DNA of 62,974 bases, counting the filler, from Stramenopiles sp. TOSAG23-6 (taxonomy: Eukaryota), in NCBI GenBank assembly GCA_900128565.1. It is 9 parts of 9 records of this genome, joined end to end, with 100 filler letters (N's around TTAATTAATTAA, not from the genome) between each part and the next. Parts side by side here need not be neighbours in the genome. Positions count along the whole stretch, not along the records: positions 43,396 to 51,942 come from LT636444.1; 8 more parts are not named here. One strand, 5' to 3'. Within the stretch, counting starts at the first letter, position 1. Each line of letters opens with the position of its first letter. The translations under genes were made by a program, and so were the position numbers. Shown here one piece after another: positions 5 through 60,705 of this stretch. The notes beneath the pieces were generated by a model. That model had not been told where the DNA came from. It did not search any database and saw only the letters and a list, made by a program, of their open reading frames with translations.

Positions 5-102
5 ATATATTGTGAAAAAATATTTTTTTTTTGATTTTGTTTTTGTTAGGTACGAAATTTCGTATGAAAAAAAAATAAATTCGAAATTAAAAAAAAACAT
101 AC
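5..102 (-). mobile_element. Repeated non-canonical intron (GTATGT...AATATAT)
   Basis: Family 5' motif, palindrome+CCTAAC core and 3' motif all present; only 4 nt of downstream exon are visible. Confidence 0.7.
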
Positions 103-8763: not shown

Positions 8764-9641
8764 ATGTATTGTGTGTTATAATTCTTATTCTTTTTTGTAT
8801 TGTTACATTGTATCATCCAGATATCTCCTTTATGAATTAAAAATAACTGTTTTGGGCGAAAACTATTTTGTTTCGATGCTTTATATCTATTTTTCTTATC
8901 AGTACACAATATTTCAGTTTCTACTTCAGTTTCTTTACACCATTCAACAGCTTCGAATCCTTGATCTAATCTAAGCCTTTCTCGACGCATTTGCTCATCG
9001 ATGGAAATTTTAAAGTTTGGTTTCTCCGCGTTACAATAAAAAGGCGTATTAGAAAGTAAAGAATATTCGGGTTCAGATACACTTCTTGCGTTGCTTGTTC
9101 CATCTACGCAACTATTATCATCTATTTCAAGAATGTGTAAAGAAGGGTTGCTAGAAGGAGAAGACATCTTTGAACTGGTATTATGTAGAATAGAAGCTGA
9201 AGAAGTATCGTTATCATTGACTGGAATAGAAAAATTTTGTACAAAAGATAGTAAAGAATCATCAGGAGAAAATTGAAATGAATGTGGTATTTCTGGTCTT
9301 TTCAAAGGGTCTTTGGTACTTTCGATTATTGAGTCAATTTGGGCCTCAACAAGCTGTGGCTTCCCACCTATAACCTTTTCTGTATTTTGAACCCAACTTT
9401 GTACAAAATTGAACGCAGAAAAAGGCTGTTTACAAGCTCCCTGAGAAGCAATACCATCAGTACTAGTACTTATACTAGATATACATCTCTTCTTCCCATT
9501 CGGAATTGCATTACTATTGTCAATCTCTGAAATAGGTCGAAGTTTATTGACGGTACTCACAACTTTCGACTCCTTATAGCGATTTATTGTAGCGCCTCTT
9601 GAGGATAAGCCTGGTATTTTTTGCTTGTGGTTATGGGACAT
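8764..9641 (-). CDS. Hypothetical Ser-rich protein, first exon; 3' truncated in a family intron (8694-8763)
   Basis: ATG ORF running to ...QYM at AT|GTATGT. Confidence 0.7.
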
Positions 9642-15685: not shown

Positions 15686-16540
<855 letters not shown>

Positions 16541-21652: not shown

Positions 21653-21707
21653 NNNNNNNNNNNNNNNNNNNNNNNNNNNNNNNNNNNNNNNNNNNNNNNN
21701 NNNNNNN

Positions 21708-21799: not shown

Positions 21800-21849
<50 letters not shown>

Positions 21850-42029: not shown

Positions 42030-42268
42030 GAAATAAAAAAATTCCTCATTTTAGATTGATAAAATTTATTAAAGTGCATTAGTTATTAGTATATTACGGA
42101 AAATTTCGTCCCAAGCGCAAGGAAATTTTCTTATTTAACGATATAGATTCAGTATAATGTCAGTTGTCCGTCGTTTTTAAAGTACCTGTATTTTGGATAC
42201 CTTTTGGTTTATTTGGGGTACCTTCACATACATACGTAACGAATGTAATAAATCGCGCAGGATATTTT

Positions 42269-43229: not shown

Positions 43230-43450
43230 ATGTATTGTGAAAAAATATTTAAAAAAAANCGTTNGGNAACAAANTTTTTATAAAAAAATAAATTCNNNNN
43301 NNNNNNNNNNNNNNNNNNNNNNNNNNNNNNNNNNNNNNNTTAATTAATTAANNNNNNNNNNNNNNNNNNNNNNNNNNNNNNNNNNNNNNNNNNNNTTTCG
43401 TACCTAACAAATTTAAGTTTTTTTTTTTGAAATATTTTTCCAAAATACAT

Positions 43451-43822
43451 CAACGTACTGGACGTTTGGTTTGGGTTAAAGTAGATGGTTTCCCGGATTG
43501 GCCTGCGGAGATTTGCTTTGATATTTCAGAAAAGAAAGCGAATGCACATTTTGATTTATCGCTTGTTGTGTTTTTTGGCGATGAGGAATCTACAGAGTTT
43601 CTTCATTCTCCAGAGGAAGATTTATCTCATTTTATTGGGAATGAAAATGATCCGTCTATATTACCTATTGGATGCCCTGAACGTGATGATGCGTATGAAA
43701 CTGCTCTAAAGGCTGCATTGACAAGGAAGTTAGTTCTAGAAAATGAGCATGGCCCGAGGCATTCATTTCGTGCGAGAAAGAAACATGCAGTGACACCAGG
43801 TAATGCTCAAATAGTAGTATAA
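43451..43822 (+). CDS. Terminal exon with PWWP domain, after a truncated family intron 43396-43450
   Basis: GRLVWVKVDGFPDWPAEI...VVFFGD. Confidence 0.8.
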   Translation, partial: QRTGRLVWVKVDGFPDWPAEICFDISEKKANAHFDLSLVVFFGDEESTEFLHSPEEDLSHFIGNENDPSILPIGCPERDDAYETALKAALTRKLVLENEHGPRHSFRARKKHAVTPGNAQIVV

Positions 43823-43943
43823 AAAAGTGACTTGACTGCAACTAAATTTTTGTGCTTTACAATTTAAAATTTTGATGTTTGTTTGCATATTCTCATAGTA
43901 AATGACACGGATTATATTTATCTTTATAGTTTATGTAGTACTT

Positions 43944-44525
43944 TTATCTTTGTACACCCATCATGTTTTTCTCTTCTAGAACTGACGCTGCAAACGTCGC
44001 TGGTGTCGCTGCTTTGAGGAAATTGTCTCCAGCGAAATGAGCAAATTTTGGGCAGTCAAGTGCCTTATCTGTACAAACAACATCCGCGCCAATCGCATTT
44101 TTCAACGCCGTCATAAAATCTATCTCGCCGCTAAAATCTGCTTCGGGTCTAATATAACCGCACACAACTAGTCGTATTTCTTCACCATAAAAATCTTCGG
44201 CAAATTCGTGCAATAAATAAGGTTCGACCACTTTATGTTGAGTTGCTTCAGTACCTTTAAAAGTTGGATTATGTCCGACACTTATAGCTGCTTTATATAT
44301 ACAAAGATCACTGTTAACATTTCCTACAGATGCCCAGCCACAATAAATTCCTGTATCCATTTTCTGAAGAGTAGAATACACCGCGGCTGAATTGTCTAGA
44401 TTTGCAGTCGGCCAACCTAATTCTTTCGAACCCCGTTGGAAACCTTTTGCAACCGTTGAACAAAACCGAATCGGTGGGTCCACGAGACTGACTGTTCTAT
44501 TTGCTACTGATTTGGTTGAAGCCAT
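43944..44525 (-). CDS. RFK: Riboflavin kinase (eukaryotic monofunctional)
   Basis: KGFQRGSKELGWPTANL, GIYCGWA, SVGHNPTF, EDFYGEEIRLVVCGYIRPE. Confidence 0.95.
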   Translation of the reverse strand: MASTKSVANRTVSLVDPPIRFCSTVAKGFQRGSKELGWPTANLDNSAAVYSTLQKMDTGIYCGWASVGNVNSDLCIYKAAISVGHNPTFKGTEATQHKVVEPYLLHEFAEDFYGEEIRLVVCGYIRPEADFSGEIDFMTALKNAIGADVVCTDKALDCPKFAHFAGDNFLKAATPATFAASVLEEKNMMGVQR

Positions 44526-44888
44526 GACGTAAACGATAAACAATATTATGTCTTGTTGACGCCTCAATGTAATGTATAATTTATAGGATAGAGTGGCAAT
44601 TTGCAAAATTGTGTCGGTATTTGTATTTTATAGTATGTGTTTCAGGTTTCAGCGAAAAAGACGAAGACGAAGACGAAGCAAAGCAGTCAAAGACGTCAAA
44701 CATTTTATTATTAATAGGGTTGGGTTAGGGTTTGCAATTTAAATTGGGCAAAATTAAAATTTCATAAAATTTTCAAATTTTTCGAAACCTCCGACTCCGA
44801 GTTCACATCCTTTTGCCGAGGAGTAGTCTACTATATATACATTACGACTCACCTGTCAGAGCGCGTCTGAGTAAGAATACATTATACT

Positions 44889-45896
44889 ATGTCGGAAAGT
44901 GACGCACAAAATACTAATCTTGTAGATGAGGCAAAAGTTTCGAAGTCTGATAATTACACTGGTAATAGATCTTCACCCGTCGCAGAATCCGTAGTCGACA
45001 ACGTTAAAAGTGAGGATTGTGAGGTATCTGTCGGAGACTCAACCAAAGAAGATATCGACAGAAAAAATGCAATGCTTTATCAACAGACTAGTTTAGAAAT
45101 GTTTTTGCAGAAAAATCCTGATAGAGAATTGCTTCTTGAATGGAGAGACGACAAGTCAGGAATATGGAAATTAATATCGATCGTGACATATGCATACCTG
45201 CTTTTTTCACCTATCTTACCTTTACTTCCACAAATGGAAAGGAAATTTTTTATAGTACTCATTTGGATATTCATTACCATGCTTGTATGGTTTAAAATTG
45301 AGTACGATAATTACGCTGAAATTTGGTGGATTTGTTTCGCCAGAGGCATTATTGTCGAATTTCCCGATACTGATACATGGAAGGGTTATTTGGTGACAAA
45401 ACCTATAATCATAGCAGTGTTGACTATGTTCACCTTTGGAGTTGTGGCATTTCTAGGTCTTACATACAACAACGATGCGAATAGTTGGAAAGACTTCCAT
45501 GTGTATGAGACCTCGTTTTTTCAAATTTTGTCAGCGTCGTTTGTGTTTGTTCTTACAAAAAATGTTGTCTGCTTGGAAGATTGTCAACACTTACTCTCAA
45601 TCAACCGTGCACTGAAATATTTGAAAGATCCATATTTGCTAACAAATAAAGGCTTTAAAAGCGTACATATAACTCAAATACAGAAATATGTATTTGATAT
45701 ACAAAGTAGACATTTTGTACGAAACCTACCAAATTTTTTACATAGCCATTCAAATCAAGAAATGCAGATTAAAAAATTTAGCTGGAATCATATTCATAGA
45801 TTAAGTCACAAACCTGTACAAGCTAATACGTTGAAGATTGGAGGAGGAATGAGGCTACTAGTATTTTTCCGGACAAAAAAAAATCTTGATGAATAA
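44889..45896 (+). CDS. Membrane protein of unknown function
   Basis: 335-aa ORF with about 4 hydrophobic helices. Confidence 0.75.
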   Translation: MSESDAQNTNLVDEAKVSKSDNYTGNRSSPVAESVVDNVKSEDCEVSVGDSTKEDIDRKNAMLYQQTSLEMFLQKNPDRELLLEWRDDKSGIWKLISIVTYAYLLFSPILPLLPQMERKFFIVLIWIFITMLVWFKIEYDNYAEIWWICFARGIIVEFPDTDTWKGYLVTKPIIIAVLTMFTFGVVAFLGLTYNNDANSWKDFHVYETSFFQILSASFVFVLTKNVVCLEDCQHLLSINRALKYLKDPYLLTNKGFKSVHITQIQKYVFDIQSRHFVRNLPNFLHSHSNQEMQIKKFSWNHIHRLSHKPVQANTLKIGGGMRLLVFFRTKKNLDE

Positions 45897-45958
45897 AAAA
45901 CTTGTAAAATACTTTTCCGGACAAAAAAAAATCTTGATGAATAAAAAACTTGTAAAAA
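45866..45958 (+). repeat. ~47-bp tandem duplication of the gene's stop region
   Basis: tttccggacaaaaaaaaatcttgatgaataaaaaacttgtaaaa x2. Confidence 0.88.
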
Positions 45959-46073
45959 ACTTCCAATATAAATTATACTTTACTAAAAACTACGTACTAT
46001 GCATAACCATACTAGAGTTATGAAATAATACTAAAATAGGTGGGGGCTGGAATCTATATAATATATAGTAGCA

Positions 46074-46835
46074 TTATTTTGTTTGATACCCTCTACCAGT
46101 GTGTGATCTAGGATTCTGAAATAATTCAGAAAGCTCTTCTAAGGAAACATTTTTTCTAAACATCTGAGTTTTACCTAATCTAGGATGGTCCAAGCAGGTT
46201 TTTACAGTCCCCGTCATGTATTTTGGAAAAATATTTCCCAAAAAAAAAACTAAAATTTGTAAGGTACAAAATTACGTATGAAAAAAACATTGAAATTGAA
46301 AAAAAAATAAAACATACGTATAATAAATCTCGAACTTACAAAAACCATCGTTTGTGTCACCTTCAAAAGCAACAACTCGTGATTGAGGATTAAATGCAAC
46401 TTCATCGAGACCATATATAGCAGCATAGTGGCGAACGTCATCTAAATCCAAACCAGAAGATTGTAAGTCATTTATGATATGCCTCAAAAATCGTTCATAC
46501 CTTTGAGCATTTTGTAAACCACAAACACCACGTGTGCCATTAGGAACCCTATAAGAACCAACAACGTTTTTCCATCCCTTGCATCTCAGAATTTTTACCT
46601 GGCATGGAAATCTCCCCCCCCAAGCAACATGTGACCAAGTAGCCGCTTCGCTATCAGCGATGAAAGGACCACAAAGTATCTTACTTTCAACGTTATATAA
46701 TAGCAATGGGAATCCCGGGGAAATGCGATTGGAACGACACGAATCTGAAAAACTCCCTTCTCTTGCTCCGAAAAGTCCTCTATTGTAACACTCCTCTTGT
46801 GTTTCATTATTACAGCAAAAAATATATGCTGCCAT
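46074..46835 (-). CDS. DCD-domain protein fused to a YYTTGTV..HPR.GKTQ..NPR.HTG.GY domain; intron 46216-46317
   Basis: YIFCCNNETQEECYNRGLFG...PGFPLLLYN...AWGGRFPCQV; spliced exon 2 is open to TAA at 46074. Confidence 0.85.
46216..46317 (-). mobile_element. Family intron, 102 nt (AC|GTATGT...AATACAT|), no flanking duplication
   Basis: GT-AT splicing gives IYYT|TGTV. Confidence 0.88.
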
Positions 46836-47043
46836 TATCACGGGGATATTATAGACTAAAAGGTAAACTTTTATTATATTTAGCGGTAGTCTTCCCCGAG
46901 GGATGCAATAATAACAATGATGATGGCGAAGTTGGCCAACTGCGCACTGGATGAATTTTCGAATTTTAAATTCGTCGTCGATGTCGGCCAAGACAACCTG
47001 GGCTAGTCAAGTAATTGTAGGTAGCTAGCTGTCATAGAGGCTA

Positions 47044-47910
47044 ATGCGTGTACGAGTTATTTTCCCGGGCAATGAAGCATTGGCTTTATCTCTAGATAGT
47101 AATCTAGAATGCTCTATGTCACACTTGAAAGCTGCAATTTACTCAAAATTAGATACTAAAGGCACGACTGTGATTTCTCTTTTCCATGACGGCAAACAAC
47201 TTGACGACGCCAAAGAAACATTTGCCTCTCAAGGGATTTCCGGGGGAAATGGATTAATTGTAGTTGTAGCTGTGATGCAGAAAAACGATATTGAAATGTC
47301 TACTCGTTCTAAACACTCTTCGGACGAGCCTATTAATGTCGAAAGTTGTTCTTCTCCTGTTTCTGCTCCAATATCAACAAATGTGAAGTCACTAATTGAC
47401 TTAGGTTTCTCAACAACGTTAGCTACCCGGGCTCTAGAGATGTGTGACGAAGATGTCAGTCAGGCTGCAAACCTATTATTCTCAGGAAGTATCAGTGATA
47501 TTCATGCAACACATTCGAGCCTTGGTACTAAAACTAGTGCTAATGAAACCAATAAAAAGTCGAATAATAAGTTAGCTTGGCTTCGATTTGATCCCCGCTT
47601 TTCCCGTCTGCTTAAAACATACAAAACTGATCCTTTTTGTGTTGGCGAAGTTCTGCATGATATTGGTGAATCACAGCCAGACCTATTGCAACTCATAAAT
47701 ACAAATCCAAAAGAATTTATTGAATTAGTTAACGAAAGTACTAACACTAGCCCTAACCCTATACGTGAGGAAACGGTACCAGTAAACAAAAAATACCGAA
47801 AACGAAAAAGAAAAGAAAATAGCAAAGATGATGGTATATCCAAGTCCGTAAAACAGGATGTAGTGTTTGATTTGTGCGAATCTTCTGATGAAAATGAGCT
47901 GTACATGTAA
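47044..47910 (+). CDS. Rad23-like UBL-UBA-XPC-binding protein
   Basis: UBL-like N-terminus, VKSLIDLGFS..A.RALEMC..DVSQAANLLF (UBA), IGESQPDLLQLINTNPKEFIEL (XPC-binding). Confidence 0.8.
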   Translation: MRVRVIFPGNEALALSLDSNLECSMSHLKAAIYSKLDTKGTTVISLFHDGKQLDDAKETFASQGISGGNGLIVVVAVMQKNDIEMSTRSKHSSDEPINVESCSSPVSAPISTNVKSLIDLGFSTTLATRALEMCDEDVSQAANLLFSGSISDIHATHSSLGTKTSANETNKKSNNKLAWLRFDPRFSRLLKTYKTDPFCVGEVLHDIGESQPDLLQLINTNPKEFIELVNESTNTSPNPIREETVPVNKKYRKRKRKENSKDDGISKSVKQDVVFDLCESSDENELYM

Positions 47911-48179
47911 AGTAGAACTTTGAAAACTTTCATTTTAGAGGTTATCAATTTATAATTGGGGTTTTTTTCGTACGAAATTTTGTGCCTAACCAAAAAACAA
48001 ATCCGTCTTCCCTAATAATTTAGAAAACTATATATGTACAGTTTTAAAGAAAAACTATCCCTTGCCACATATCATCATTTTATAATATAAATGCTATAAA
48101 TGTGAAAATAATATAAATAGTTCTAGAATATTACCTATAAGCATATTGAAAAGTCAACTGCTTTTCAATATCTTTCTTA

Positions 48180-48536
48180 TTATCCAAAGAAATCACCAAA
48201 GTGATTTGACTTTGGACGGTTTGCTTTGGTTTTAGCCAAACTTTCCATTTCATTTTTTGTAACTGGTTCAAGTATCATTTGATGCATTGGTACAACAGCA
48301 AGAAGCTCAAGTCTATTACATTCTCTACATATATTCGAAGTCATAGGGGTACCGCAAATATCGCAAACTCCACCGGTATCAGTAAAAGAAAGTGGGATGG
48401 CTTTTTTATCTACAGTGTGTTGCAGAATTGCCTGAGACGCAATAGAAAAACCTCTTCTTGAACAAGAATAATCACATTTTCTTGAGCTGCAACTAATAGG
48501 TCGAGTAAATGTTTGTTGAATCTTTGTGCGAAACAT
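48180..48536 (-). CDS. Small hypothetical protein with CxxC...CxxC
   Basis: ATG ORF; CDICGTP..CREC. Confidence 0.45.
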   Translation of the reverse strand: MFRTKIQQTFTRPISCSSRKCDYSCSRRGFSIASQAILQHTVDKKAIPLSFTDTGGVCDICGTPMTSNICRECNRLELLAVVPMHQMILEPVTKNEMESLAKTKANRPKSNHFGDFFG

Positions 48537-48719
48537 TTTAAATAATGAGAAAACTTTATCCCAGAGAATCTCAGGTACTAAGTCTTGAAGAAATCACTAA
48601 AATGAAGCGTTAAGAACTGAATATATTTTTTTCTGTTAAACGTGGAGGAACTTCTACGTAACTGCCTCACAAAAATACGTCTTTCCGTGGACTTCGCCGT
48701 CATCTCCGTAATTTTGCAG

Positions 48720-49603
48720 ATGGCAAATTGGAGGCAATTCTCCCCAGGGGGGTTCAAAGCCACGACTTCCCTTCCCGCGTCCTTTTTATCAGATGCTAAG
48801 CCAGTTCGTCGCAATATACCGAGAAAAATAAGTGGTCCACCAACTAGTCAAGGAAATTCACCCAAAATCAAACAAAAGAAACATCACTCACGGTTAAATA
48901 TTGGCAGTGCTGATTCAGCTTTGAGAGAATCATGTCATGATTCATTACCACCCCGTAATACTGTTTCAAAGCCATACACTTCTTCCCCTAGGCCTAGAAG
49001 GAAAACACCAGTCATACCTCCTCGCAACGCACCCCCTTTGCAACTATATAGTTTTCTTACTCGCACAGAAAAACTCGCAACTGATGAAGTCGAGCCCCCA
49101 AAGACAGGTATAGATGCAGATTTTATATGGCCACCCCCAAAACATATTAATATAGTTCCTCCAAAACAAGAACCATTAATGGAGGCCCCACAAAATCTCC
49201 TTGCCTCAATCTTAAAAAAAGAAACTTTTCGCGTTGTTCAACCTGAAAAACTCATCAATGAAGTTGTCTATGACTCAACTGATGTTTCTCCGTCAAACAG
49301 TCAAAAACGACATAAATTTAATAGTAGCTTTAATAGAACTCCGGGGAAGGCAAAACAAAATAGTGTTTCCCCATGGTATACCCCAAAAGGATCAGATGAT
49401 TCTGTGCTCGTCTTCGAGTCTCGCTTTGAAAGTGGAAATCTCCGACGTGCCATCCAAGTGTATGAAAATGAGTACGATCTTATATTAAAACCAGATTTTA
49501 ATACAAGAGGACATACACAATGGTATTATTTTTCTGTATCCAATACACGGCATGGAAGAGCATACAAATTTAATATCATTAATTTAGTTAAAAATGATTC
49601 ATT
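48720..49603 (+). CDS. Cytosolic carboxypeptidase (CCP/AGBL, M14D) N-terminal part
   Basis: LVFESRFESGNLRRA..EYDLILKPDFNTRGHTQWYYFSV..YKFNIINLVKNDSL. Confidence 0.88.
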
Positions 49604-49695
49604 GTATGTTTTATTTTTTTTCAAATTAGATTTTTTTTTCGTACGAAATTTTGTACCTAACGATTTTTTTTGTGAAATATTTTTTCACAATACTT
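49604..49695 (+). mobile_element. Family intron (TT|GTATGT...AATACTT|), possibly a chimeric join of two copies
   Basis: Family motifs present, but the downstream exon is not CCP-like. Confidence 0.7.
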
Positions 49696-50062
49696 GAATC
49701 TTTAAAGTTAAAATTGGGATCCAAAGATGCATCAAAATCGTTTACAAATTATGAATTGGAAGAAGAAAAACAAGAAGAGTTGAGTCGTTTGAAGAATAAA
49801 TTAGAAAAGCTATGGAAAGAAGTTGGTACAAGTCCTGATGTACGTTGTCCAGTTTCATTTCAATTTGTTTTTTCGTACGAAAGTTTGTACCTAACGATTT
49901 TTTTTTTTTTTTTTTTTCACAGTACATGAAATTGCAAATTTTTATGCTGGAATAGATTCAAAGATGCCATATAATGAGACTTTATTTGGAATTTACAAAG
50001 AAACTATGCAATCTTTATATGATATTGGAGGATTGGATCCTGAAACGACCAATAATTTTTAG
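49696..50062 (+). CDS. Last two exons of a helical protein; family intron 49840-49927 (AT|GTACGT...AGTACAT|)
   Basis: ESLKL...GTSPD|EIANF...NNF*. Confidence 0.6.
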
Positions 50063-50466
50063 GAGATTTAAAAAAATTGAAAAACAATAAAATTTACAAG
50101 TACAAAAAAATTTCTAAGTGTATATTTGTTTTTGTAGGTAATTTTGTACCTAACCAGCGTACTTATACCATAATTTTTTTTGATTCGTTTTTTTTAGTGG
50201 AGCTTATTGCCAATTCCTTGATATGTAACCATTGTAATGCTTATTACACATGTACGCACTGTAAACAAACACCATGTATTTATTTCATTTTTGGTCATCT
50301 TAATCTAAACCCAATATTTATAAAATTATTGATACGAAATACAAAATTCTACAAATCCAAAAATTAATAACTTTTCTATTTGATATGAAAAATACAAAAT
50401 TTTAACTTGAGAAGAAGAAGAAGAAGAAGAAAGAATCATTGTTTTGTAAAATTTAATATATTTGAA

Positions 50467-50829
50467 TTAAAATGTATCCTGTTGAGGTCTATCGGGTAGT
50501 CCCGTAAAAGGATTATTATTTGCAGATGTGTCCTCAGCAAATGGATACACGACATTACTAGAAATGTCTTCTTTATTAACTAATATAGGCTTCTTTTCAA
50601 TCTCAGACTCTGCAACTGTACCATGAACTATGTGTTCTCCATACGCATTCTTCATAAATGTATTATTAGCATGCATATACTCATTATTATTGTCTAAGTA
50701 AGGGTCCCCATCGTGACCAGGCAAAGGGTCATCACTGTCATCTGAAGCACAAGCACATTTACGAACATCAAAGTCACTTAGAGACATATTCGAAATACCT
50801 TCCTTTAAAGCACTTAATCGCTGACCCAT
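50467..50829 (-). CDS. Hypothetical protein, 120 aa (MG start, possible N-myristoylation)
   Basis: ATG ORF MGQRLS... Confidence 0.6.
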   Translation of the reverse strand: MGQRLSALKEGISNMSLSDFDVRKCACASDDSDDPLPGHDGDPYLDNNNEYMHANNTFMKNAYGEHIVHGTVAESEIEKKPILVNKEDISSNVVYPFAEDTSANNNPFTGLPDRPQQDTF

Positions 50830-51127
50830 TACACAAATATAAATACTAGTTTTGAAGAAACAATTGTCAAAATAATGCTACCGAGTATGCACAACGGTTT
50901 TTCAATTTATTTTTGTTGGTTTTTTGTTGTTGGTTCCAAAATAGTGTGGCCAAGAAATTGCAAGAAATTCACGAAATCTCAAAAAAAAAAAAAAACTTTT
51001 TCATCATCAAAATATTCAACATTGAAAAAATGTACCCCAAAATAAAATTTTATAAGTTATAGTCATCAAAATACTACATAGGAAAACCTCTTATTGATAA
51101 TGGGACAATTCATCATGAGAGATAGAC

Positions 51128-51855
51128 TTATTCTATAGCCACATTTTCTTCTCTATTATCACTAGAAGATACAATTGTTGTTGTAGATCGTAAATTTTTG
51201 TGTGAGAATGGAAATTCAGACAAAATTTTAAAGTTTGTATTCATACAAATATCTTTTGCCTTTGATCTTCGAGTTGTACATTGTTCAGCTTCAAATACAA
51301 TCCAAGAAGTTTTGCCTAATTTCACAAATTCATCTGGAGTTGGAGGATGATTTTCATTAGAAGAGTGTAGGCCTGTTTTTGACCCTAACCCTGGTATACC
51401 TGCAGCCATTGCAGGATCACTAGTTGTTACTTTTCCATTTTCTACATGTCCCATATATCTTCTAACAAATTGGTTATGTATTGCAGATATTGAGAAATCG
51501 TACCAATTATTACTACTTGTAATACTAATATAGTGTATTGAAGCAATATTATTAGAGACAGTTACGTTCCAAGGTCCACCAGTATTGTCAAAAAATATTC
51601 AAAAAAAATCGTTAAGTACAAAATTTCGTATGAAAAAAATAAATTTGAAATTAATGATGAAAACGAACCAGTATTGTATGCATTATCAACAATTTGAACA
51701 ACGACATTTTTATCTTCTTTTTTTATATTTTCTGCATCCCAATTTCCTTTTATGGAAATTTTCATTGCATCCATTTCAATATCATATTCTGTTCCAATTT
51801 GCAATTTTTGAGTGTATTTGTTACCTTTATAGAACCTAACAAATCCATTTGGTCC
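51128..51855 (-). CDS. Bacterial-type phosphocholine phospholipase C, C-terminal DUF756 region; intron 51580-51668, truncated intron 51856-51942
   Basis: (H)GPNGFVR, DNAY, NWYDFSI...FVRRYMGHVENG...SDPAM. Confidence 0.8.
51580..51668 (-). mobile_element. Family intron ending in TG, 89 nt (TG|GTTCGT...AATACTG|)
   Basis: Removal joins YNTG|GPWNV in frame with ORF 51128-51454. Confidence 0.85.
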
Positions 51856-52322
51856 ATGTATTGTGAAAAAATATTTTAAATTCAAAATTTGTTAGGTACG
51901 AAATTTGGTACAAAAAAAAATCCGAAATTGAAATGAATGATANNNNNNNNNNNNNNNNNNNNNNNNNNNNNNNNNNNNNNNNNNNNTTAATTAATTAANN
52001 NNNNNNNNNNNNNNNNNNNNNNNNNNNNNNNNNNNNNNNNNNGGAAAATCGTCTCAAAGATGTTAAAATTCAACCTGAACCTGAACCTGAACCTGAAATT
52101 GTAATTGAACGTGAAGCTGAACCTGAAGCTGGAATTACAATTGAAGAACTCCAATCTGGATTTTAATCCTTTAGGACTGATAAAATTTTAAAAATTTTAG
52201 AAANTTNCAAAAATTTTCAAAATAATCATTTTAATGGTAATTGAATTTAATTTAAAAAACAAAACCAACTTTGATTTTTATAATTTTATAAATACTAGAT
52301 ACTACACAATACTACAATACTA

Positions 52323-55300
52323 CTACACATTCAATTCTACATTGTTATTAGAAAATTTTGAATAAATTTCAATTATATTTTGTTCAAGTTGAGTAACCCT
52401 TGAATTAAGTTCCTTGATCACATTGTTTTGATTCACCATTTTTTGTTTCTCAGTATCAAGATTGCTTTCCAGTTGTCTACCTTTGGCTTGTAGATCCAAA
52501 ACATTTTTATGCAATTGAAGAATATACAATGAGGATTCTTCTACTTTTTCTAAAAGTCTTTTTATCCATAAACCTAAGTTAAACCCTTCTGATTTCATAT
52601 CAGCGGCGCTTGTGACGTTGGGTAAATGTTTCTCTTTTTCTATAAATTTTTGAAATGCATCAAGTGGCATTAAAGGATAGTCTGGCTCAAAAACATAATC
52701 TGGCCAAGAGTACCCACCAGACGGCTGAAAAATTGATCCACCAATGTCAATATCCCCACCAACATTCAAATCTTTCATGATACCTACACCTCCTGCAACA
52801 GTGAAAGTACCTGTGAGAGAAGAAGAAGAAGCTGCATCTCCTTGTATATGTACTCCACCTCCGGTATATACAGACATAGCGACCCCGACACCACCACCAA
52901 CAATTAATGAACCCGAGTCCGTTGAAGTTGAAGGAAAACTAGTTGCAATTCCATCTTGCCAACCATCAACGGTTAGTCTCTGGTGAACTTTCACACTACC
53001 ACCAAGAAAACTTTCAGCATCAATATCAGTTTGTTGATTTATGTGAATCCGTTCACCAACATACAATTGCTTCCCGATTCCAGCACCGCCAGCAGCAACA
53101 AATGAACCTGTGAGTGTGCTATCGCTTTGTGTGGTACCAGATGTTGATACATCGCCACCTGCATTCAATCCCCCCACAATACCAACACCACCAGCAATAG
53201 TAACCGTTCCACTAGTATTGTCTGTTGAGGCTGTCGAACCTGCTATGTGCAATCCATCTCCAATATATACATCTCCTGCTGCACTGAAACCACCAGCTGT
53301 GCTCAACGATCCGCTACTAGTATTTGTAGCAACACTAGTGCTTCCAATATTTACATCCCCTCCAATTCCTACACCACCACCAATTGTGACTGTTCCTGTT
53401 GTAGCTGAAGTTGAAGCCGTTGTCCCTTGTACATGTAAACCTCCTCCAATAAATGCAGTTTTCCCAATACCTGCACCACCACCTACTACAAGAGAACCCG
53501 TGTGTGATGATGTACTGTCAGTAGTTGCATCAATACTAGTGATCCCACCAATGTTTACATTTTCACCAATACCAACACCACCAACAACCGTGAGTGCACC
53601 ATTGGTTGTTTGTGTAGATGTATTAACTGATTGGATATTTGCAGAGCCACCAACGAAAAGATTCATTGCTATACCAGCACCTCCAGACGTAGTCAGTGCA
53701 CCATGTAGACTTGAGTCGGCTTGTGTTGTACCACGACCATGAATTGATCGTCCAGAATAAATGTCATATGATACTCCAATACCACCAGTTACCGTTATAG
53801 TTCCTGTTTCAGCAGATTCAGAATGATGTCCACCTTTCACATTAATATGGTCACCAACATAAATACTTTTCTGTACTCCAAGACCACCACTGACATTCAA
53901 TGCACCTGATGTACTAGTTGTGGCATCTACCGAACCCGTTACTACCCCAATACCACCAACATAAAGGTCTGCAGCAACACCTACACCTCCCGCAACAGTC
54001 ACTGTACCTGAAGTAGCTGAAGTGGAATCAGATGTACCAACAACGCTTAACGTGGTGCCTACATTAACCGCCTTTGCAACACCAATACCGCCTGATAAAG
54101 TAAGAGCACCATTTAAACTGGAAGTTGAATCTGTAACACTTGCAATATCTAGATTACCACCAACAAACGCTTTTTTTGCAATGGCTGCGCCCCCAGATGT
54201 TGTGAATGAACCTCCTGTTGTAGCGTTTGATGCATCTGTATCATCAGTAATAGTTTGAGCTCCCGATACATTTAAATTCCCAGATACTCCGATTCCTCCA
54301 CCAAAAGTAGCAGCTCCTGATGTAGGTGATGTGGATTCAGTAGTCCCTTCTACATGAAGAGTTGCCCCAACATATAATTGTTTTGCAATACCTACACCAC
54401 CAGCAACTTTCAATGAACCACTAGTACTTGAAGAAGATAGTGACTCGCCACCAATCGTAGCACCTTTTTTAATTCCAATACCACCCGCAAGAGTAATAGC
54501 CCCAGTTAATGATGACGATGTCACTGTAGCTGCACCAACATGTAAATCCTGACTTATACCAACTCCACCACTTACAGTAAGTGAGCCTGTTGATCCACTT
54601 GAAGATGAAAGATTTTTACCAATGTGAACAACTCCCCCAATGTAAAGATCTTCGCCTATACCAACCCCACCCATCGTAGTTAGTGCTCCCGTTGTACTTG
54701 ACGTTGCACTGTAATCTCCTTCTACATGAAAAACTCCACCAACATATAAATTATCCGCAATGCCAACACCACCCAGTGTAGTGAAAGCTCCCGAACTAGC
54801 ATCTGTTGCTGCTTCGGTGGACCCTATAGATAGTATCTCTCCTACATAAAGACCTTTTGCTATTCCAATGCCCCCTGCTACAGTAATCGAACCACTAGAA
54901 GATGACGTAGAAACAGTCGTGGATGATATTATCGTCGATCCATCTGCTTTTACACGAAATACAGCGCCACCACTGTTCTCTGCCTGAATCAGATCAGGGC
55001 CTGATGACATGTTAGGAGCTTTAATGAGCAAAACGTCAACTGAGCTTGCTAGACTATTACCCTGTGATTCAATGGTAAATGTGTTAGAATTATTTACTGT
55101 TGTAGTAACAGTTGCAGCGTCGTTGAAAGTTGAAGTTCCAGCAACCGTAATTCCACCACCCTGCACATCCAAGCCGCCAGATGTAATTGTAGCACCTCCT
55201 GCAGAAACAGTCAGCCCGCCAGCTGAAACTGTAATACCTCCAGCTGCTACTGAAAGCCCACCTGTGTGAATTGTAGTTTCACCATCGCCACCAATATCAA

Positions 55301-57041
55301 ATACAGTAGTTGTAGTGCCAGCGATTGCACGAAATAGTTTAAATTCACATGGGTCATTATTGCATGAATTTGTTGTAGATGTAATGAAGACATTATCAGT
55401 AAAAGTTGCATCTGTTTCTTTATGAGCCAGCATGACATAGTCCTGGGTTAGTGTATGACTTCCATCTGTAGCCGCTACTAAACTCGACATTGTCAAATTT
55501 CCTGTGACGGACACAGCACCAGCAAAGGTAACCGCGGCCGAAAATTCAGCTGTCGAGCAAAACATCTTACCATCAGCTCGAACGCGCCATTTTTCAACTG
55601 AACTTGCAGAAATGTATAATGCATTCGCTGTACTGGAAGCATTTGTATCAAGGTTAATAATAACAGCATTTCCAGAAAAAGAAGTACCCGTCATATCAAC
55701 TTTAAATCCACTATTTACATTACCAGCGTTATATGTGCTTGTTACTGCAACACCTGCAGTTGAAGTTGAGACAGCAAGACCTTCTGTTGTTGTCACATAC
55801 TTAGTATTAATGGTATCAATAGATAACGCACCATCTCCTCTTACGGAAAAAACAGAGACATTGTTGGCTTGAGCGTCTAAAAACTTAAAATCCGTGCTTG
55901 CACTCTTCGTTGTTGAAAGTTGAAGAACATTGCTTGTAAAACCCGAATATTCGCTACCCAAGGTTAGTGCCGGGGTATTATCACCCCAAGCAATATTATC
56001 TGATGCAACATCGCATAAAGTACCCGTGTATCCTGAGAAGCATGTACACTGGCCACTTGTGAAATCACAAATTCCATTACCAGCACAATATTCGTATTCC
56101 ACAATGTTGGATACGGCAACATTTGTCGGATTAACTGCGACCGTACAAGTAGGAGTTGTACCGCCAGTAACATCATCAGTAAAACATTGAAAACTTTCCA
56201 CAGTGGGAATAGTTCCTTGAGAATATATATTATTCAAGGATGCTTGTTGTGTAAATACTAGACCTAATGTGTAAGTGACGCCTCCTTCAGCGTCTGCTGT
56301 ACCAACTGTACATGTTGACGTCGCAGCTACATTGCTTAACGCTGATATAATTGAACTCGCACAGGTACTGTCAGTAGCATTGGCACCATCTGCCGTAAAG
56401 GTTGCTTCAAAACCCTGATACAGTAATGAGAACGTTCCCGCCAGTGTTCCACCCGCTGCACCAGTTGTAATAGTCACTACGACGTTGGACTGTCCTGTAG
56501 TTTTTGGATTATCACCTTTTGGGCACGTTTTAAGGGAACAATCTGGGCCCGTATATCCGACATCACAAGCACAAATTCCCATAGTATTTTTCTCCCAGTT
56601 CGTGTACACTGGGCCAAGTCCAGAACCAAGTTGTGATTGAGGTCCGTAGTACTTCGCAGCTTGACTCGTCGTCTTGCACACTCCATGTTGACTACAATTG
56701 TTTGGACAACTTTTTTTTGCACAGTTATCGCCTTCCCAACCGTCAAAACAAATACACACACCCGTACGTCTATTGCATTTACCTGCATTACTACACTCTA
56801 CCAAGGAATGTGCAACCGTTGATCCGCTTGGTTTATCAAACCATGCCTCCCCAGAAGGACAGACCTGTTGTGAACAGTCATTGCTGTATCCATATCCTGG
56901 GTAGCAAGTACATGTCTGGCCGGAGCAAGTACCTTTCCCAGAGCAGTTATTTGGACATGCTGCGTGTATATATGATGCAATTAAAACAAGAAATGTGAAT
57001 AGTATGACTGATAGGTCATTAAAATTCCTTCTGCGCTGCAT
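52323..57041 (-). CDS. Second variant of the EGF/tail-fibre-like protein (5 aa shorter)
   Basis: Identical to 35022-39755 except the segment preceding WPDYVF. Confidence 0.88.
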   Translation of the reverse strand: MQRRRNFNDLSVILFTFLVLIASYIHAACPNNCSGKGTCSGQTCTCYPGYGYSNDCSQQVCPSGEAWFDKPSGSTVAHSLVECSNAGKCNRRTGVCICFDGWEGDNCAKKSCPNNCSQHGVCKTTSQAAKYYGPQSQLGSGLGPVYTNWEKNTMGICACDVGYTGPDCSLKTCPKGDNPKTTGQSNVVVTITTGAAGGTLAGTFSLLYQGFEATFTADGANATDSTCASSIISALSNVAATSTCTVGTADAEGGVTYTLGLVFTQQASLNNIYSQGTIPTVESFQCFTDDVTGGTTPTCTVAVNPTNVAVSNIVEYEYCAGNGICDFTSGQCTCFSGYTGTLCDVASDNIAWGDNTPALTLGSEYSGFTSNVLQLSTTKSASTDFKFLDAQANNVSVFSVRGDGALSIDTINTKYVTTTEGLAVSTSTAGVAVTSTYNAGNVNSGFKVDMTGTSFSGNAVIINLDTNASSTANALYISASSVEKWRVRADGKMFCSTAEFSAAVTFAGAVSVTGNLTMSSLVAATDGSHTLTQDYVMLAHKETDATFTDNVFITSTTNSCNNDPCEFKLFRAIAGTTTTVFDIGGDGETTIHTGGLSVAAGGITVSAGGLTVSAGGATITSGGLDVQGGGITVAGTSTFNDAATVTTTVNNSNTFTIESQGNSLASSVDVLLIKAPNMSSGPDLIQAENSGGAVFRVKADGSTIISSTTVSTSSSSGSITVAGGIGIAKGLYVGEILSIGSTEAATDASSGAFTTLGGVGIADNLYVGGVFHVEGDYSATSSTTGALTTMGGVGIGEDLYIGGVVHIGKNLSSSSGSTGSLTVSGGVGISQDLHVGAATVTSSSLTGAITLAGGIGIKKGATIGGESLSSSSTSGSLKVAGGVGIAKQLYVGATLHVEGTTESTSPTSGAATFGGGIGVSGNLNVSGAQTITDDTDASNATTGGSFTTSGGAAIAKKAFVGGNLDIASVTDSTSSLNGALTLSGGIGVAKAVNVGTTLSVVGTSDSTSATSGTVTVAGGVGVAADLYVGGIGVVTGSVDATTSTSGALNVSGGLGVQKSIYVGDHINVKGGHHSESAETGTITVTGGIGVSYDIYSGRSIHGRGTTQADSSLHGALTTSGGAGIAMNLFVGGSANIQSVNTSTQTTNGALTVVGGVGIGENVNIGGITSIDATTDSTSSHTGSLVVGGGAGIGKTAFIGGGLHVQGTTASTSATTGTVTIGGGVGIGGDVNIGSTSVATNTSSGSLSTAGGFSAAGDVYIGDGLHIAGSTASTDNTSGTVTIAGGVGIVGGLNAGGDVSTSGTTQSDSTLTGSFVAAGGAGIGKQLYVGERIHINQQTDIDAESFLGGSVKVHQRLTVDGWQDGIATSFPSTSTDSGSLIVGGGVGVAMSVYTGGGVHIQGDAASSSSLTGTFTVAGGVGIMKDLNVGGDIDIGGSIFQPSGGYSWPDYVFEPDYPLMPLDAFQKFIEKEKHLPNVTSAADMKSEGFNLGLWIKRLLEKVEESSLYILQLHKNVLDLQAKGRQLESNLDTEKQKMVNQNNVIKELNSRVTQLEQNIIEIYSKFSNNNVELNV

Positions 57042-57392
57042 TGTTCGGGAAACCACACAAATTTATCTTTCCAAATGAAAACTATAATTGTAGTTACGTT
57101 GTTACGTTGTGCCGTTAGGGTATCATAGTATCCGTACCATTAAAGTACGAAATTGAAAAGGGCAGTTACTTTATCGAGTACCCGGTACCTCTATTTAGAA
57201 ATTTTTCATTTATTTATTAGAATCAAAATAAACCAATAAAATGATATATCACACTTTGCTTTATATTGTTGTATCTATTATTTTTGTTTATTTTGTCAAA
57301 TCATACCATGCCATACGTAGGGTTAGGGTTTAAAATATTGAAGTTCCATACATAGGGTTAGGGTTTAAAATATTGAAGTTCCATACGTAGGG

Positions 57393-58742
57393 TTAGGGTT
57401 TAAAATATTGAAGTTCAGACGCAACCATACCACAAGATTTGATATCATTAATTAGTGAAGTGGGACCGGCAACAAGTGCAGCTAACTGGTCATCATTCGG
57501 TTTAAAGATGACCATTGAACTCACAATACATGCAGGAGTAGATTTAGGGAAATCAAAAAGAGGAATATGAAAATCTTGTGTTGTAGGGTTAGGGCTCCCA
57601 TTTGGAAGTTTTACAACTTTTGCAAACTTTGACCAATTAGTAATTGCACCATATGTACCTTTAGTGATATGTTCCCAGTTAGTTGGCATGGATGAAGAAC
57701 TATCACGTTTATATATTGGTCCTGTCACACTCTTTCGTATCAATGACGGTAATAGATAATCTTCTTTTCTATATGCTATTAAATCTTCATAGTTTCCAAT
57801 TTGGTCATCATCAAGATTTTCAATCTTCCCTCTAAAATTAATAGCCATAATAGCAACATCACATTGAAGGACGTTGCAAAATGTTGAAACAAGAATGTCA
57901 TTTGTTGAAATAAATGCTACATTACGGTTATCATTATTTTTTGATTTATGTTTTGATTTTTGTTCATCGAGCCAAGTTTTTGAAATGTAGAAACCAAAAG
58001 AATCTGTTGAAGGGAAGAACATATTTTTCAATACACCAAAAATGAAACGAAATAAAAACCCTGGTGGAGGTGACATGAACGACAATTCACCTCCCATAGC
58101 TTCTTTGATTTTAGAGGGTATTTTTTGATTTCTATCAGGAGAGAGAGCTTCAACTTTTGCTTCACTCGAAAGCATGTTGAATATTCTATAATAACCGTGT
58201 CCGTCTAACAATGAGTGATTTGCACTTACAATTAGAGCAAACTTATTCCGACCATTCGGGATAAGTGTTACTCTCCAAAGAGGTTTATTTGTACCTTCTG
58301 TTTCTTCACTTGTACCACACAGAAAGGGCGAAAGACTTTTAACCATCGAATGATAATTAGAAGACAAATCAACTGTTCGAACGGTGAACCAATATCCTTG
58401 TTCAATGAGTGGACCAGACGACGGTGGAATAAAGATAGTTAACTCACCGTTCTCGTCGCGATCAAGTATACCACATAACCAAGGATTTGCAATAAGTATT
58501 TCTTTTGTGCGAGCAGAGAAATACTTTGTCGCTTCTGAAAGAGAACCTGAAAAGTAAGTGATCGTGCTCGTCGCTGGAGCTTTGCAAATCATGGGGCCAA
58601 CCTCGTTAGGCAGAAGTTTAAGTCTTTTGTAACTCGAATACCGTTTTTTTCGTTGATGATAGCGGAACCAACTCCAACCTTGATGTGCCACAAAGAGACC
58701 AGCCACGACAGTTGCTGCTACGGCCATGTTAGAGTCCGTCAT
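57393..58742 (-). CDS. Duplicate of the HxxxD acyltransferase-fold gene
   Basis: Same sequence as 40107-41456. Confidence 0.75.
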   Translation of the reverse strand: MTDSNMAVAATVVAGLFVAHQGWSWFRYHQRKKRYSSYKRLKLLPNEVGPMICKAPATSTITYFSGSLSEATKYFSARTKEILIANPWLCGILDRDENGELTIFIPPSSGPLIEQGYWFTVRTVDLSSNYHSMVKSLSPFLCGTSEETEGTNKPLWRVTLIPNGRNKFALIVSANHSLLDGHGYYRIFNMLSSEAKVEALSPDRNQKIPSKIKEAMGGELSFMSPPPGFLFRFIFGVLKNMFFPSTDSFGFYISKTWLDEQKSKHKSKNNDNRNVAFISTNDILVSTFCNVLQCDVAIMAINFRGKIENLDDDQIGNYEDLIAYRKEDYLLPSLIRKSVTGPIYKRDSSSSMPTNWEHITKGTYGAITNWSKFAKVVKLPNGSPNPTTQDFHIPLFDFPKSTPACIVSSMVIFKPNDDQLAALVAGPTSLINDIKSCGMVASELQYFKP

Positions 58743-58931
58743 GATATTATATTGTACTTGTTTTTGTTTCCGAACAGAAAAATAGTTCATTGAAAAGAAA
58801 CTAGATTTGATTGGATGGAAGAATTAAATAAATAGCTAATCGTAATTTGATGGGCGGTTACGGTTTCCTATATTTACAGTATAGATTTTTTTTGAATAAT
58901 AGGCTATGAAAAAAGATACAGACAGTATACC

Positions 58932-59315
58932 ATGTACGGATCAGGGAAGTCGCTTTTCAATAATGCCATGAATGGTACATCACAAACAACTCCACATGAT
59001 ATCCATGGACACACTGATTTCACGAAACCCTATAAACATTATGATGAAAAAGGTCTTGAATATGCACATGGTCACTATGATCAGTACGGAAATTATGATT
59101 CGCATTATACACATTACNATNAAAANGGTCAANTTGATNCACANGGTCANTATGATGAATGGGGCGAATATGATTCATATTATACCAATCATTCTACAAC
59201 TAATCCTTCTACGACAACAAAGCCTTATCATTATAATTTTTCAAACGATGAACTTTCATATTTTGCAGCTATAGGTGGACAGTATAAAGACCAATACGCA
59301 AAAAAAAATTATTGA
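58932..59315 (+). CDS. Duplicate of the small Tyr/His/Gly-rich ORF
   Basis: Same as 41646-42029. Confidence 0.5.
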   Translation: MYGSGKSLFNNAMNGTSQTTPHDIHGHTDFTKPYKHYDEKGLEYAHGHYDQYGNYDSHYTHYXXXGQXDXXGXYDEWGEYDSYYTNHSTTNPSTTTKPYHYNFSNDELSYFAAIGGQYKDQYAKKNY

Positions 59316-59554
59316 GAAATAAAAAAATTCCTCATTTTAGATTGATAAAATTTATTAAAGTGCATTAGTTATTAGTATATTACGGAAAATTTCGTCCCAA
59401 GCGCAAGGAAATTTTCTTATTTAACGATATAGATTCAGTATAATGTCAGTTGTCCGTCGTTTTTAAAGTACCTGTATTTTGGATACCTTTTGGTTTATTT
59501 GGGGTACCTTCACATACATACGTAACGAATGTAATAAATCGCGCAGGATATTTT

Positions 59555-60515: not shown

Positions 60516-60705
60516 ATGTATTGTGAAAAAATATTTAAAAAAAANCGTTNGGNAACAAANTTTTTATAAAAAAATAAATTCNNNNNNNNNNNNNNNNNNN
60601 NNNNNNNNNNNNNNNNNNNNNNNNNTTAATTAATTAANNNNNNNNNNNNNNNNNNNNNNNNNNNNNNNNNNNNNNNNNNNNAAAAAATATTTTTTCACAA
60701 TATAT

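What the first reader, a model, noticed from the sequence alone, without database searches (positions are those of the whole stretch)
51580..51668. The acceptor dinucleotide looks like a co-opted 2-bp target-site duplication (TG here)
The upstream exon ends in AT in 16 of the 22 copies with a visible 5' end. The only two copies not ending in AT end in TG (this one) and TT (49604-49695), and in both the upstream exon ends in the same dinucleotide. The element proper has short inverted termini (GTAT...ATAC). Inference: a MITE-like element with an AT-preferring 2-bp TSD, whose 3' splice site is set by position (AATAC+2) rather than by dinucleotide identity, giving scarless intron gain. Caveats: this copy shares a longer ACAATACTGGT at both ends, so its register is ambiguous, and the TT copy may be chimeric.
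Basis: partly seen in the sequence, partly recalled or inferred. Interest (0 to 1): 0.8.

Follow-up and report, generated by a model that had tools for sequence, protein, structure and literature searches.

The report
Introner copy ending in TG
An 89-base copy of a repeated, intron-like mobile element interrupts a phospholipase-C-like gene and ends in TG instead of the family's usual AT, repeating the exon bases in front of it, which hints at, but does not prove, a copied insertion site serving as the splice acceptor.

Summary
Window 51580-51668 (minus strand) is a real, diverged copy of a ~90-125-nt element family (GTAYGT ... TACCTAAC ... AATAC+2). It ends in TG, the exon before it ends in TG, and an 11-nt repeat sits at both borders. 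Homologues show that removing exactly one repeat period restores DNAY-NT-GGPW without an indel, so no AG or AT acceptor is available if the intron starts at GT.

The supporting tally is weaker than stated.
- After removing assembly duplicates, 13 of 17 visible 5' flanks end in AT, and 20 of 22 3' ends are AT.
- The TT copy is mis-registered: its exon runs 4 nt further and ends in AT, and the contig is probably mis-joined there.
- Two copies have non-AT upstream flanks (AC, GC) but AT termini.

The correlation therefore rests on one copy. That copy shares 9 nt, not 2, with its upstream exon, and a second copy shares 10. This points to insertion next to sequences that resemble the element's own 3' end.

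A target-derived terminal TG is likely. A fixed 2-bp staggered-cut duplication is plausible (ISL2EU transposons make AT duplications) but unproven. I saw no RNA evidence of splicing, no empty site and no transposase.

The parts
51580..51668 (-). Focal element copy / inferred intron, 89 nt. It starts GTTCGT, carries the branch-like TACTTAAC and ends GACAATAC+TG.
   Evidence: nhmmer E=3.8e-9; read; the frame test joins 74 and 150 open codons.
51667..51677 (-). Upstream copy of the 11-nt direct repeat ACAATACTGGT (9 exon bases plus the intron's first GT).
   Evidence: 9-nt suffix identity between the exon end and the intron end.
51578..51588 (-). Downstream copy of the 11-nt direct repeat (the intron's last 9 bases plus the first GT of the next exon).
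   Evidence: RNA-library contig X6 record 16 stops matching at 51577, the edge of this repeat.
51669..51855 (-). Upstream exon of a phospholipase-C-like gene (GPNGFVR...VDNAYNT + G).
   Evidence: Aligns to P0123 residues 456-505; weak PF05506 match.
51131..51579 (-). Downstream, last exon (GPWNVTV...WYD...TTSDPAMA...), with the stop codon just below 51131.
   Evidence: PF05506 E=3.7e-5; 112 homologues at E<=1e-3; aligns to P0123 from residue 507.
51856..51942 (-). Neighbouring copy in the same gene. Its 3' end is CACAATAC+AT; its 5' end is lost at the contig end.
   Evidence: nhmmer E=1.7e-11.
49604..49695 (+). The exon really runs to 49607, so the upstream dinucleotide is AT. The terminus is TT, and the contig is probably mis-joined here.
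   Evidence: X3 record 5.
16252..16349 (-). Reference copy in a RecQ helicase gene (AT|GTACGT...AACAC+AT). The excision is exact by profile.
   Evidence: Helicase_C profile positions 85 / 86 / 87 run contiguously across the junction; frame test.
46216..46317 (-). Counter-example copy: the upstream exon ends AC, the terminus is AT, and the frame is intact (199/47 codons).
5..102 (-). Counter-example copy: the upstream exon ends GC and the terminus is AT (AATAT+AT). The downstream exon lies off the window.
8764..8773 (-). Exon bases CACAATACAT directly in front of copy 8763>. They are 10 nt identical to the family's usual 3' end (a 'pseudo-end').

Best explanation
The stretch is a genuine member of an introner-like family: short non-autonomous elements that sit in the sense strand of unrelated genes. 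Each brings its own donor (GTAYGT) and branch-like box (TACCTAAC).

Shown:
- The stretch belongs to the family.
- The 11-nt border repeat is present.
- The mature message must keep exactly one copy of that repeat.

Inferred:
- The element integrates with a short target duplication, normally at (Y)AT(G). The copied dinucleotide lies just after the element's ...AATAC end and serves as the last two intron bases.
- In this copy the integration machinery was drawn to an exon sequence that mimics the element's own 3' end (ACAATAC). The next two bases, TG, were duplicated instead of AT.
- The splicing machinery then cuts at GT and two bases past AATAC, whatever those two bases are.
For: Family and anatomy.

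Element-plus-2 excision restores ORFs in 12 of 13 complete unique copies. This fixes the removed length only modulo 3.

Exact junctions:
- RecQ Helicase_C profile 85|86|87.
- Carnitine acyltransferase, profile 50 then 57 at residue 6.
- Focal gene against P0123, residues 505|506|507. P0125 and P0133 show the same DNAY-xx-GGPW spacing.

The exon's ACAATACTGG is therefore ancestral coding sequence, and the second TG is the added one.

Upstream AT occurs in 13 of 17 flanks against a background of 0.095. Exon +1 is G in 14 of 21 and exon -3 is a pyrimidine in 14 of 17 (uncorrected tallies). This gives a partly palindromic C-AT-G target, as cut-and-paste transposases tend to show.

A known eukaryotic transposon group, ISL2EU, makes 5'-AT-3' duplications (PMC4482050, passages read). 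Recruitment of splice sites from target duplications is documented for introners (PMC9860276 and bioRxiv 10.1101/2020.10.14.339549, passages). Non-AG acceptors preceded by an exonic TAC are reported for Fritillaria (review PMC11282704, passages).

Two of 17 flanks match the element's 3' end over 9-10 nt. Background P(k>=7 | AT) is 0.0034, and that figure is inflated by true element ends.
Against: - Only one valid non-AT terminus has a visible, trustworthy upstream flank.
- Two copies with non-AT upstream flanks (AC, GC) end in AT.
- The TT copy does not match once it is re-registered.
- A 2-bp duplication does not predict the 9-11-nt identity.
- The inverted termini are only 4 nt long.
- The window holds no transposase: 27 different exon or ORF stretches were scanned, and none matched one.
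- No empty site was available.
- No spliced RNA was seen. One RNA-library contig covers an exon plus 56 nt of another copy, so it is unspliced RNA or DNA (X9 record 27).
- The focal donor GTTCGT is off-consensus.
- AT is the most conserved feature of the 3' end, so identity may matter.
Confidence: 0.4

Rival explanations
1. Microhomology-guided integration, not a fixed 2-bp staggered cut. The terminal AT belongs to the element. A new copy joins where the target matches the element's 3' end over a variable length (0-10 nt, usually just AT or CAT). The last bases of the new copy are templated by the target. The TG copy is then a 7-nt match (ACAATAC) followed by two target bases.
For: Suffix identities between the upstream exon and the intron end are 0, 0, 2 (x8), 3 (x4), 5, 9 and 10 in 17 copies. 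That is an excess of long matches. The two copies with no identity (AC, GC flanks) still end in AT, as an element-owned AT predicts.
Against: - It needs an unspecified repair or priming pathway.
- It does not explain the preference for G at exon +1 and a pyrimidine at -3.
- With so few copies, the excess at k=3 (6 of 17 with k>=3, against 0.19 expected) is modest.
Confidence: 0.3
2. RNA-mediated spread (reverse splicing and reverse transcription) with no duplication. The upstream AT and downstream G are a proto-splice-site preference. The TG/TG match arose by later change or gene conversion.
For: The elements carry complete donor and branch signals, and every copy read inside an ORF is in the sense orientation. 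The inverted termini are minimal.
Against: A 9-nt identity with ancestral coding sequence is very unlikely to arise by later mutation. The terminal AT would have to become TG by two changes that happen to copy the flank.
Confidence: 0.12
3. The focal copy is not a working intron: it is either a recent disabling insertion that is not spliced or an assembly artefact.
For: The assembly holds a palindromic contig, a duplicated contig and a probable mis-join inside an element 2 kb away. The donor is GTTCGT. No spliced read was seen.
Against: Both exons are open (74 and 150 codons) and keep the family's conserved residues with exact spacing. An artefact would need two joins that return to the same gene in register.
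Confidence: 0.08

Closest known systems
Introners / introner-like elements that recruit a splice site from their target-site duplication (Micromonas, Aureococcus, Symbiodinium, Polarella, Chrysochromulina)
   Same: A multi-copy short element in unrelated genes. It carries one or more splice signals, and the other border lies in or beside a short direct repeat of the target. Excision leaves the coding sequence intact (PMC9860276, bioRxiv 10.1101/2020.10.14.339549 and review PMC11282704; passages read).
   Different: In those families the recruited bases still spell AG (or GH at the donor). Here the last two intron bases are AT in 20 of 22 ends and TG in this copy, and there is no AG at all.
Non-canonical MITE-derived introns of Fritillaria borealis (AG-AC, AG-AT)
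   Same: Non-AG acceptors that repeat the exon bases in front of the intron (exonic TAC). The introns have a transposon origin and are thought to be spliced by a tolerant major spliceosome (as summarised in review PMC11282704; the primary paper was not held).
   Different: There the donor is also non-canonical (AG). Here the donor is a strong GTAYGT and a yeast-like branch box is present. The organism here is a marine protist whose best named protein matches are stramenopiles.
ISL2EU transposons (PHIS superfamily)
   Same: Cut-and-paste elements with a 2-bp 5'-AT-3' target duplication (PMC4482050).
   Different: The reported target is A|AT|T and the inverted repeats usually start with GG. Here the flanks are Y-AT-G and the termini are GTAT. 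No transposase was found.
Nonconventional and 'intermediate' introns of euglenids and hemistasiid diplonemids
   Same: Variable non-GT-AG borders, short direct repeats at the junctions, intron ends able to pair, and a suspected MITE origin (PMC12621601, PMC6221363, PMC11282704).
   Different: Those introns lack a U1-type donor and depend on an end-pairing structure. Here the folds are no more stable than shuffles (z from +0.4 to -1.7), and the host does not look euglenozoan.

Membership tests
Introner / introner-like element | Many similar copies forming introns of unrelated genes | tested here: met
   48 nhmmer matches at E<=10; 41 of them, at E<0.01, were read. De-duplicated copies lie in RecQ, UBA2, carnitine acyltransferase, DCD-domain and PLC-like genes, among others.
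Introner / introner-like element | Precise removal restores the reading frame and the protein | tested here: met
   12 of 13 complete unique copies in the frame test. Junctions are exact in RecQ and the focal gene, and contiguous at the first carnitine acyltransferase junction.
Introner / introner-like element | Spliced from RNA | tested here: inconclusive
   Reads were laid once. Element repeats swamp the joint table and no junction for this copy is listed. One RNA-library contig retains part of another copy.
Introner / introner-like element | Canonical acceptor (AG), carried or recruited | tested here: not met
   None of 22 unique 3' ends is AG. The RecQ junction excludes a downstream AG.
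MITE with a 2-bp target-site duplication | Identical dinucleotide on both sides, whatever its sequence | tested here: inconclusive
   Of the 14 copies with both ends visible: AT/AT in 10, TG/TG in 1, AC/AT in 1, GC/AT in 1, and the TT copy, which reads AT/TT once re-registered.
MITE with a 2-bp target-site duplication | Terminal inverted repeats | tested here: inconclusive
   Only GTAT/ATAC (4 nt), or 6 nt counting the AT. This is too short to stand above chance.
MITE with a 2-bp target-site duplication | Empty sites and an autonomous partner | not testable with these tools
   No genome is held. The metagenome scan gave only chance hits. No transposase domain appeared in the ORFs scanned.
ISL2EU | A|AT|T target and GG-starting inverted repeats | tested here: not met
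   Position -3 is C or T in 14 of 17, position +1 is G in 14 of 21, and the termini start GT. The criteria come from PMC4482050.
U12-type AT-AC intron | ATATCCTT donor and a TCCTTAAC branch site 10-20 nt from the acceptor (criteria recalled, not from a call) | tested here: not met
   In the AT...AC register the donor reads ATGTATGT. The branch-like box lies 32-46 nt from the 3' end (reading).
Helitron-type insertion between A and T | 5' TC and 3' CTRR ends with no duplication (criteria recalled) | tested here: not met
   In that register the ends read TG...CA. The focal copy would need both ends changed (reading).

The most novel reading that the evidence does not exclude
In this uncultured marine protist, a large family of mobile introns is removed by machinery that finds the 3' cut from the element's ...AATAC end (or from pairing of the two borders), not from an AG. 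The last two intron bases are then simply whatever the insertion duplicated. Any site the element enters becomes a scarless intron.
Probability: 0.3. Interest if true: 0.85.

Novelty: new variant of a known kind. Interest (0 to 1): 0.6.

Why it matters
Introners are the best-supported route to bursts of intron gain. In every described family, however, the recruited bases must still spell the spliceosome's AG, which limits where a viable intron can form.

This family has a canonical donor and branch site but an AT acceptor, and here a TG acceptor. If confirmed, 3' splice-site choice would be decoupled from AG in a lineage outside tunicates and euglenozoans. The family would also offer a natural series of variants for studying how the second catalytic step picks its site.

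The pseudo-end observation is separate. Two insertions sit beside exon sequence that mimics the element's 3' end. This is a testable clue to how the element chooses targets.

Tried and rejected
- **Collection scans:** the viral-contig scan with the 3'-end motif gave 2 chance hits. The single metagenome-contig scan was aimed at copies whose terminus does not start with A. It gave 65 loci, all chance matches, and none of the 67 loci matched the element model at E<=1e-3.
- **Laying reads:** the element is extremely abundant in seawater DNA and RNA-library contigs, so repeat joints fill the tables. No joint for 51669|51579 is listed. X6 record 16 stops at 51577 with 56 letters unplaced, which I could not read. 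Absence of a listed joint says nothing either way.
- **Near-length homologue search** for the focal exon: no hits. The exhaustive search succeeded.
- **Diplonemid hypothesis:** prompted by reports of non-canonical introns in single-cell diplonemid data (PMC12621601, sections read). The best named UBA2 matches are oomycete, brown-alga and pelagophyte proteins, so I dropped it.
- **End-pairing structure:** the 6 folds have z-scores from +0.4 to -1.7. An AUGUAU/AUACAU helix appears in 3 of 6 minimum-energy folds but not in the focal copy.
- **3-bp duplication (AT plus the next base):** it fits copy 21178 but fails in 31076, 32258 and 20930.
- **TA duplication register:** it would require an 8-bp constant target inside exons, so I rejected it on reading.
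- **Rfam:** only a tRNA-Leu was found.
- **Earlier notes of this scan:** nothing relevant.
- **Literature:** a whole-word search for 'GT-AT' with 'introns' and 'introner' (at least 2 of the 3 terms) listed 15 of 116 papers, and none of the 15 holds 'GT-AT'. A search for MAST-4, introns, single-cell genomics and non-canonical gave nothing relevant. The Current Biology diplonemid paper is not held. Supplements were closed and might hold intron tables that bear on novelty.

Full report
**What the window is.** The 62,974 bases are not one molecule. Eight linkers of the form N44-TTAATTAATTAA-N44 join nine contigs. Seven are about 8.5 kb long and two about 1.1 kb.
- Contig 17385-25975 is a perfect palindrome, with arms of 4,395 nt that are 100% complementary.
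- Contig 34742-43295 is 99.56% identical to 52043-60581.
- Many contigs end inside the repeated element.

Counts of copies must therefore be de-duplicated, and joins inside elements are suspect. No whole genome is held. The DNA is about 33% G+C, uses the standard code and has long ORFs. The best named matches of its SUMO-E1 exon are oomycete, brown-alga and pelagophyte proteins at 63-64% identity. The host therefore looks like a marine stramenopile-type protist, not a euglenozoan. A run search found the stretch in seawater DNA and RNA-library contigs.

**The element family.** I built a profile from nine full copies. It finds 48 matches at E<=10 in the window, and I read the 41 with E<0.01. In the sense orientation of the host gene, a typical copy reads: exon ...AT | GTAYGTTTT(A/C)... 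a palindrome GTACGAAATTTCGTAC running into TACCTAAC ... T-rich ... CA(C/A)AATAC AT | G... exon.
- Lengths run from 88 to 127 nt.
- The branch-like box lies 32-46 nt from the 3' end, so the 3' border is not set by distance from it (reading).
- There is no AG at the 3' end. Of 22 unique visible 3' ends, 20 are AT, one is TT and one is TG (with three coordinates corrected by one base on reading).

**Are these introns, and where are the cuts?** I took the 13 complete, unique copies. I cut at the G of the donor and two bases after ...TAC, then asked whether long ORFs join.
- They do in 12 of 13, with open codons from 21/35 up to 199/200. The exception is the TT copy.
- The test fixes the removed length only modulo 3, since shifts of -3 and +3 are equally open.

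Homology gives exactness in three genes.
- In RecQ, the Helicase_C profile ends at position 85 one residue before the exon end and resumes at position 87 with the first residue of the next exon. The message reads ...HVRY|VIH...
- In a carnitine acyltransferase, profile position 50 is followed by position 57 at residue 6 of the next exon. That gives six residues for six profile positions.
- The focal gene is treated below.

Because AT stands on both sides, the registers GT...AT, TG...CA and AT...AC give the same message and cannot be told apart in AT copies.

**The focal copy.** On the minus strand the exon ends ...GATAATGCATACAATACTG. The copy then runs GTTCGTTTTCATC ... TACTTAACG ... TTTTTTGACAATACTG (51668 down to 51580, 89 nt), and the next exon starts GTGGACC. 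The 11-mer ACAATACTGGT stands at both borders (51667-51677 and 51578-51588).

The gene is phospholipase-C-like.
- The downstream exon matches PF05506 at E=3.7e-5, 25.0 bits against a cut-off of 24.4.
- An exhaustive search found 112 homologues at E<=1e-3, the best at 2.5e-18.
- Three homologues (P0123, P0125, P0133) read DNAY-xx-GGPW. The window gives DNAY-NT-G|GPW.
- The upstream exon aligns to P0123 residues 456-505. The split codon takes residue 506, and the downstream exon starts at 507.

So exactly one 89-nt period must be absent from the message, and the exon's TAC AAT ACT GG is ordinary ancestral coding sequence, not element debris. No register gives both a GT start and an AT end. The options are GT...TG, TG...AC, AC...AT and AT...CA. 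If the donor GT is used, the acceptor dinucleotide is TG.

The window-wide AT frequency is 0.095. The four others are TG (focal), TT, AC and GC.

The TT case fails on three counts.
- An independent seawater DNA contig (X3 record 5) follows the window from 48128 exactly to 49607, and its remaining 308 letters go elsewhere.
- The CCP N-domain is cut at profile position 58 of 107 and the downstream exon does not continue it.

The upstream dinucleotide of that copy is therefore AT. The contig is probably mis-joined inside the element, so its TT terminus has no trustworthy partner.

The AC copy (46317>46216) keeps its frame (199/47 codons) and ends in AT. The GC copy (102>5) also ends in AT. This is neither a correlation nor its absence.

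**Something the 2-bp model does not predict.** I measured how far each upstream exon end matches the 3' end of its own copy, or the family's usual 3' end where the copy is cut. The lengths are 0, 0, 2 (eight times), 3 (four times), 5, 9 and 10.
- The 9 is the focal copy.
- The 10 is the copy at 8763, whose exon ends CACAATACAT. This lies inside an ORF that reads ...NYNTQY.
- Among 9,383 window positions preceded by AT, matches of 7 or more occur at 0.0034, and most of those are true element ends.

Two of 17 insertions therefore lie directly behind exon sequence that mimics the element's own 3' end. The flanks also show a pyrimidine at -3 (14 of 17) and G at +1 (14 of 21).

**Reading.** How it was made is open.
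- *A staggered 2-bp cut, normally at (Y)AT(G).* This fits the near-universal AT and the partly palindromic C-AT-G flanks. It has a precedent in ISL2EU transposons, which make 5'-AT-3' duplications (PMC4482050). The family fails ISL2EU's A|AT|T target and GG termini, however. The pseudo-end would explain why an off-target dinucleotide was used here.
- *Annealing between the element's 3' end and the target over a variable length.* This explains the long matches, and it explains the AT kept by the two copies with no match at all.

I put these at 0.40 and 0.30. An RNA route with no duplication gets 0.12, and a dead or artefactual copy 0.08.

**What was not obtained.**
Element-containing bins reach depths in the thousands to tens of thousands, against about 9 in single-copy bins of the DNA run. 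The tool warns that these depths sum over organisms. An RNA-library contig (X6 record 16) matches 51339-51577 and stops at the edge of the repeat with 56 letters unplaced. Another (X9 record 27) covers 46262-46436, which is an exon plus part of an intron.
- *More copies or empty sites.* The only metagenome-contig scan returned 65 chance matches.
- *A transposase.* None is in the window.
- *A stable fold.* The folds are not more stable than shuffles.

**Comparison with what is known.** Recruiting a splice site from a target duplication is established for introners. A non-AG acceptor that repeats the exon end is reported for Fritillaria (review only). What differs here is a canonical donor and branch box combined with an AT acceptor, in a different lineage, and one copy where the acceptor is TG. 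In the searches run, none of the listed papers describes GT...AT introners. Supplements and the non-held papers were not seen.

**Verdict.** The finding is a real and interesting copy.

Noticed in passing
window 8594-8693, 17285-17384, 25976-26075, 34642-34741, 43296-43395, 51943-52042, 60582-60681, 61779-61878: The window is a chain of contigs joined by 100-base linkers (N44, a 12-base all-frame stop block, N44). Contigs often break inside the repeated element.
   Followed up: yes
window 17385-25975; 34742-43295 versus 52043-60581: One contig is a perfect palindrome around a 55-N gap. Another pair of contigs is 99.56% identical, differing mainly near the C-terminus of a 1,580-residue teneurin-EGF repeat protein. 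These are assembly or amplification artefacts, or alleles.
   Followed up: partly
window 20930-21056 (+) and 21178-21279 (+): Two introns of one carnitine acyltransferase gene begin ATACGT and ATATGT instead of GT. Copy 21178 has a 7-nt border repeat (CATATAT) that also allows a GT...AT register starting at GTTTTA. Copy 20930 has no GT register that keeps the 3' cut after AT.
   Followed up: partly
window 49604-49611 (+); also 19173 and 21182 regions: A second possible donor, GTTTT(A/C), lies 4 nt inside the usual GTAYGT. The CCP exon appears to use it. The family may therefore offer two donors 4 nt apart, which would let it form introns in more than one frame.
   Followed up: partly
window 11860-11890 (-) and 19868-19895 (+): Two element copies carry telomere-like CCCTAACCCTAA just after their 5' end. 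A 35-nt tandem repeat containing GGGTTAGGGTTT stands at 40025-40130 (and at 57311-57416 in the duplicate contig).
   Followed up: no
family-wide, e.g. window 49641-49656 (+): Most copies hold a perfect 16-nt palindrome (GTACGAAATTTCGTAC) whose 3' arm runs into the branch-like TACCTAAC. It could be a protein-binding site in DNA or a hairpin that presents the branch site in RNA.
   Followed up: no
window 19173-19340 (+): A composite intron made of two partial element copies in tandem (two CGTAGATAATTCCGTACCTAAC cores 76 nt apart).
   Followed up: no
window 43396-51942, runs X3, X6, X9: Element-matching contigs are laid in very large numbers in seawater DNA and polyA RNA libraries: 6,807, 1,118 and 980 records. 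The family, or close relatives of it, is abundant in the sea. The RNA libraries hold it about as richly as the DNA run, but the tool warns that such depths cannot be ranked.
   Followed up: partly
window 32931-33019 (-): A tRNA-Leu(TAA) gene of 89 nt, of the long-variable-arm type. It is the only Rfam match in the window.
   Followed up: yes
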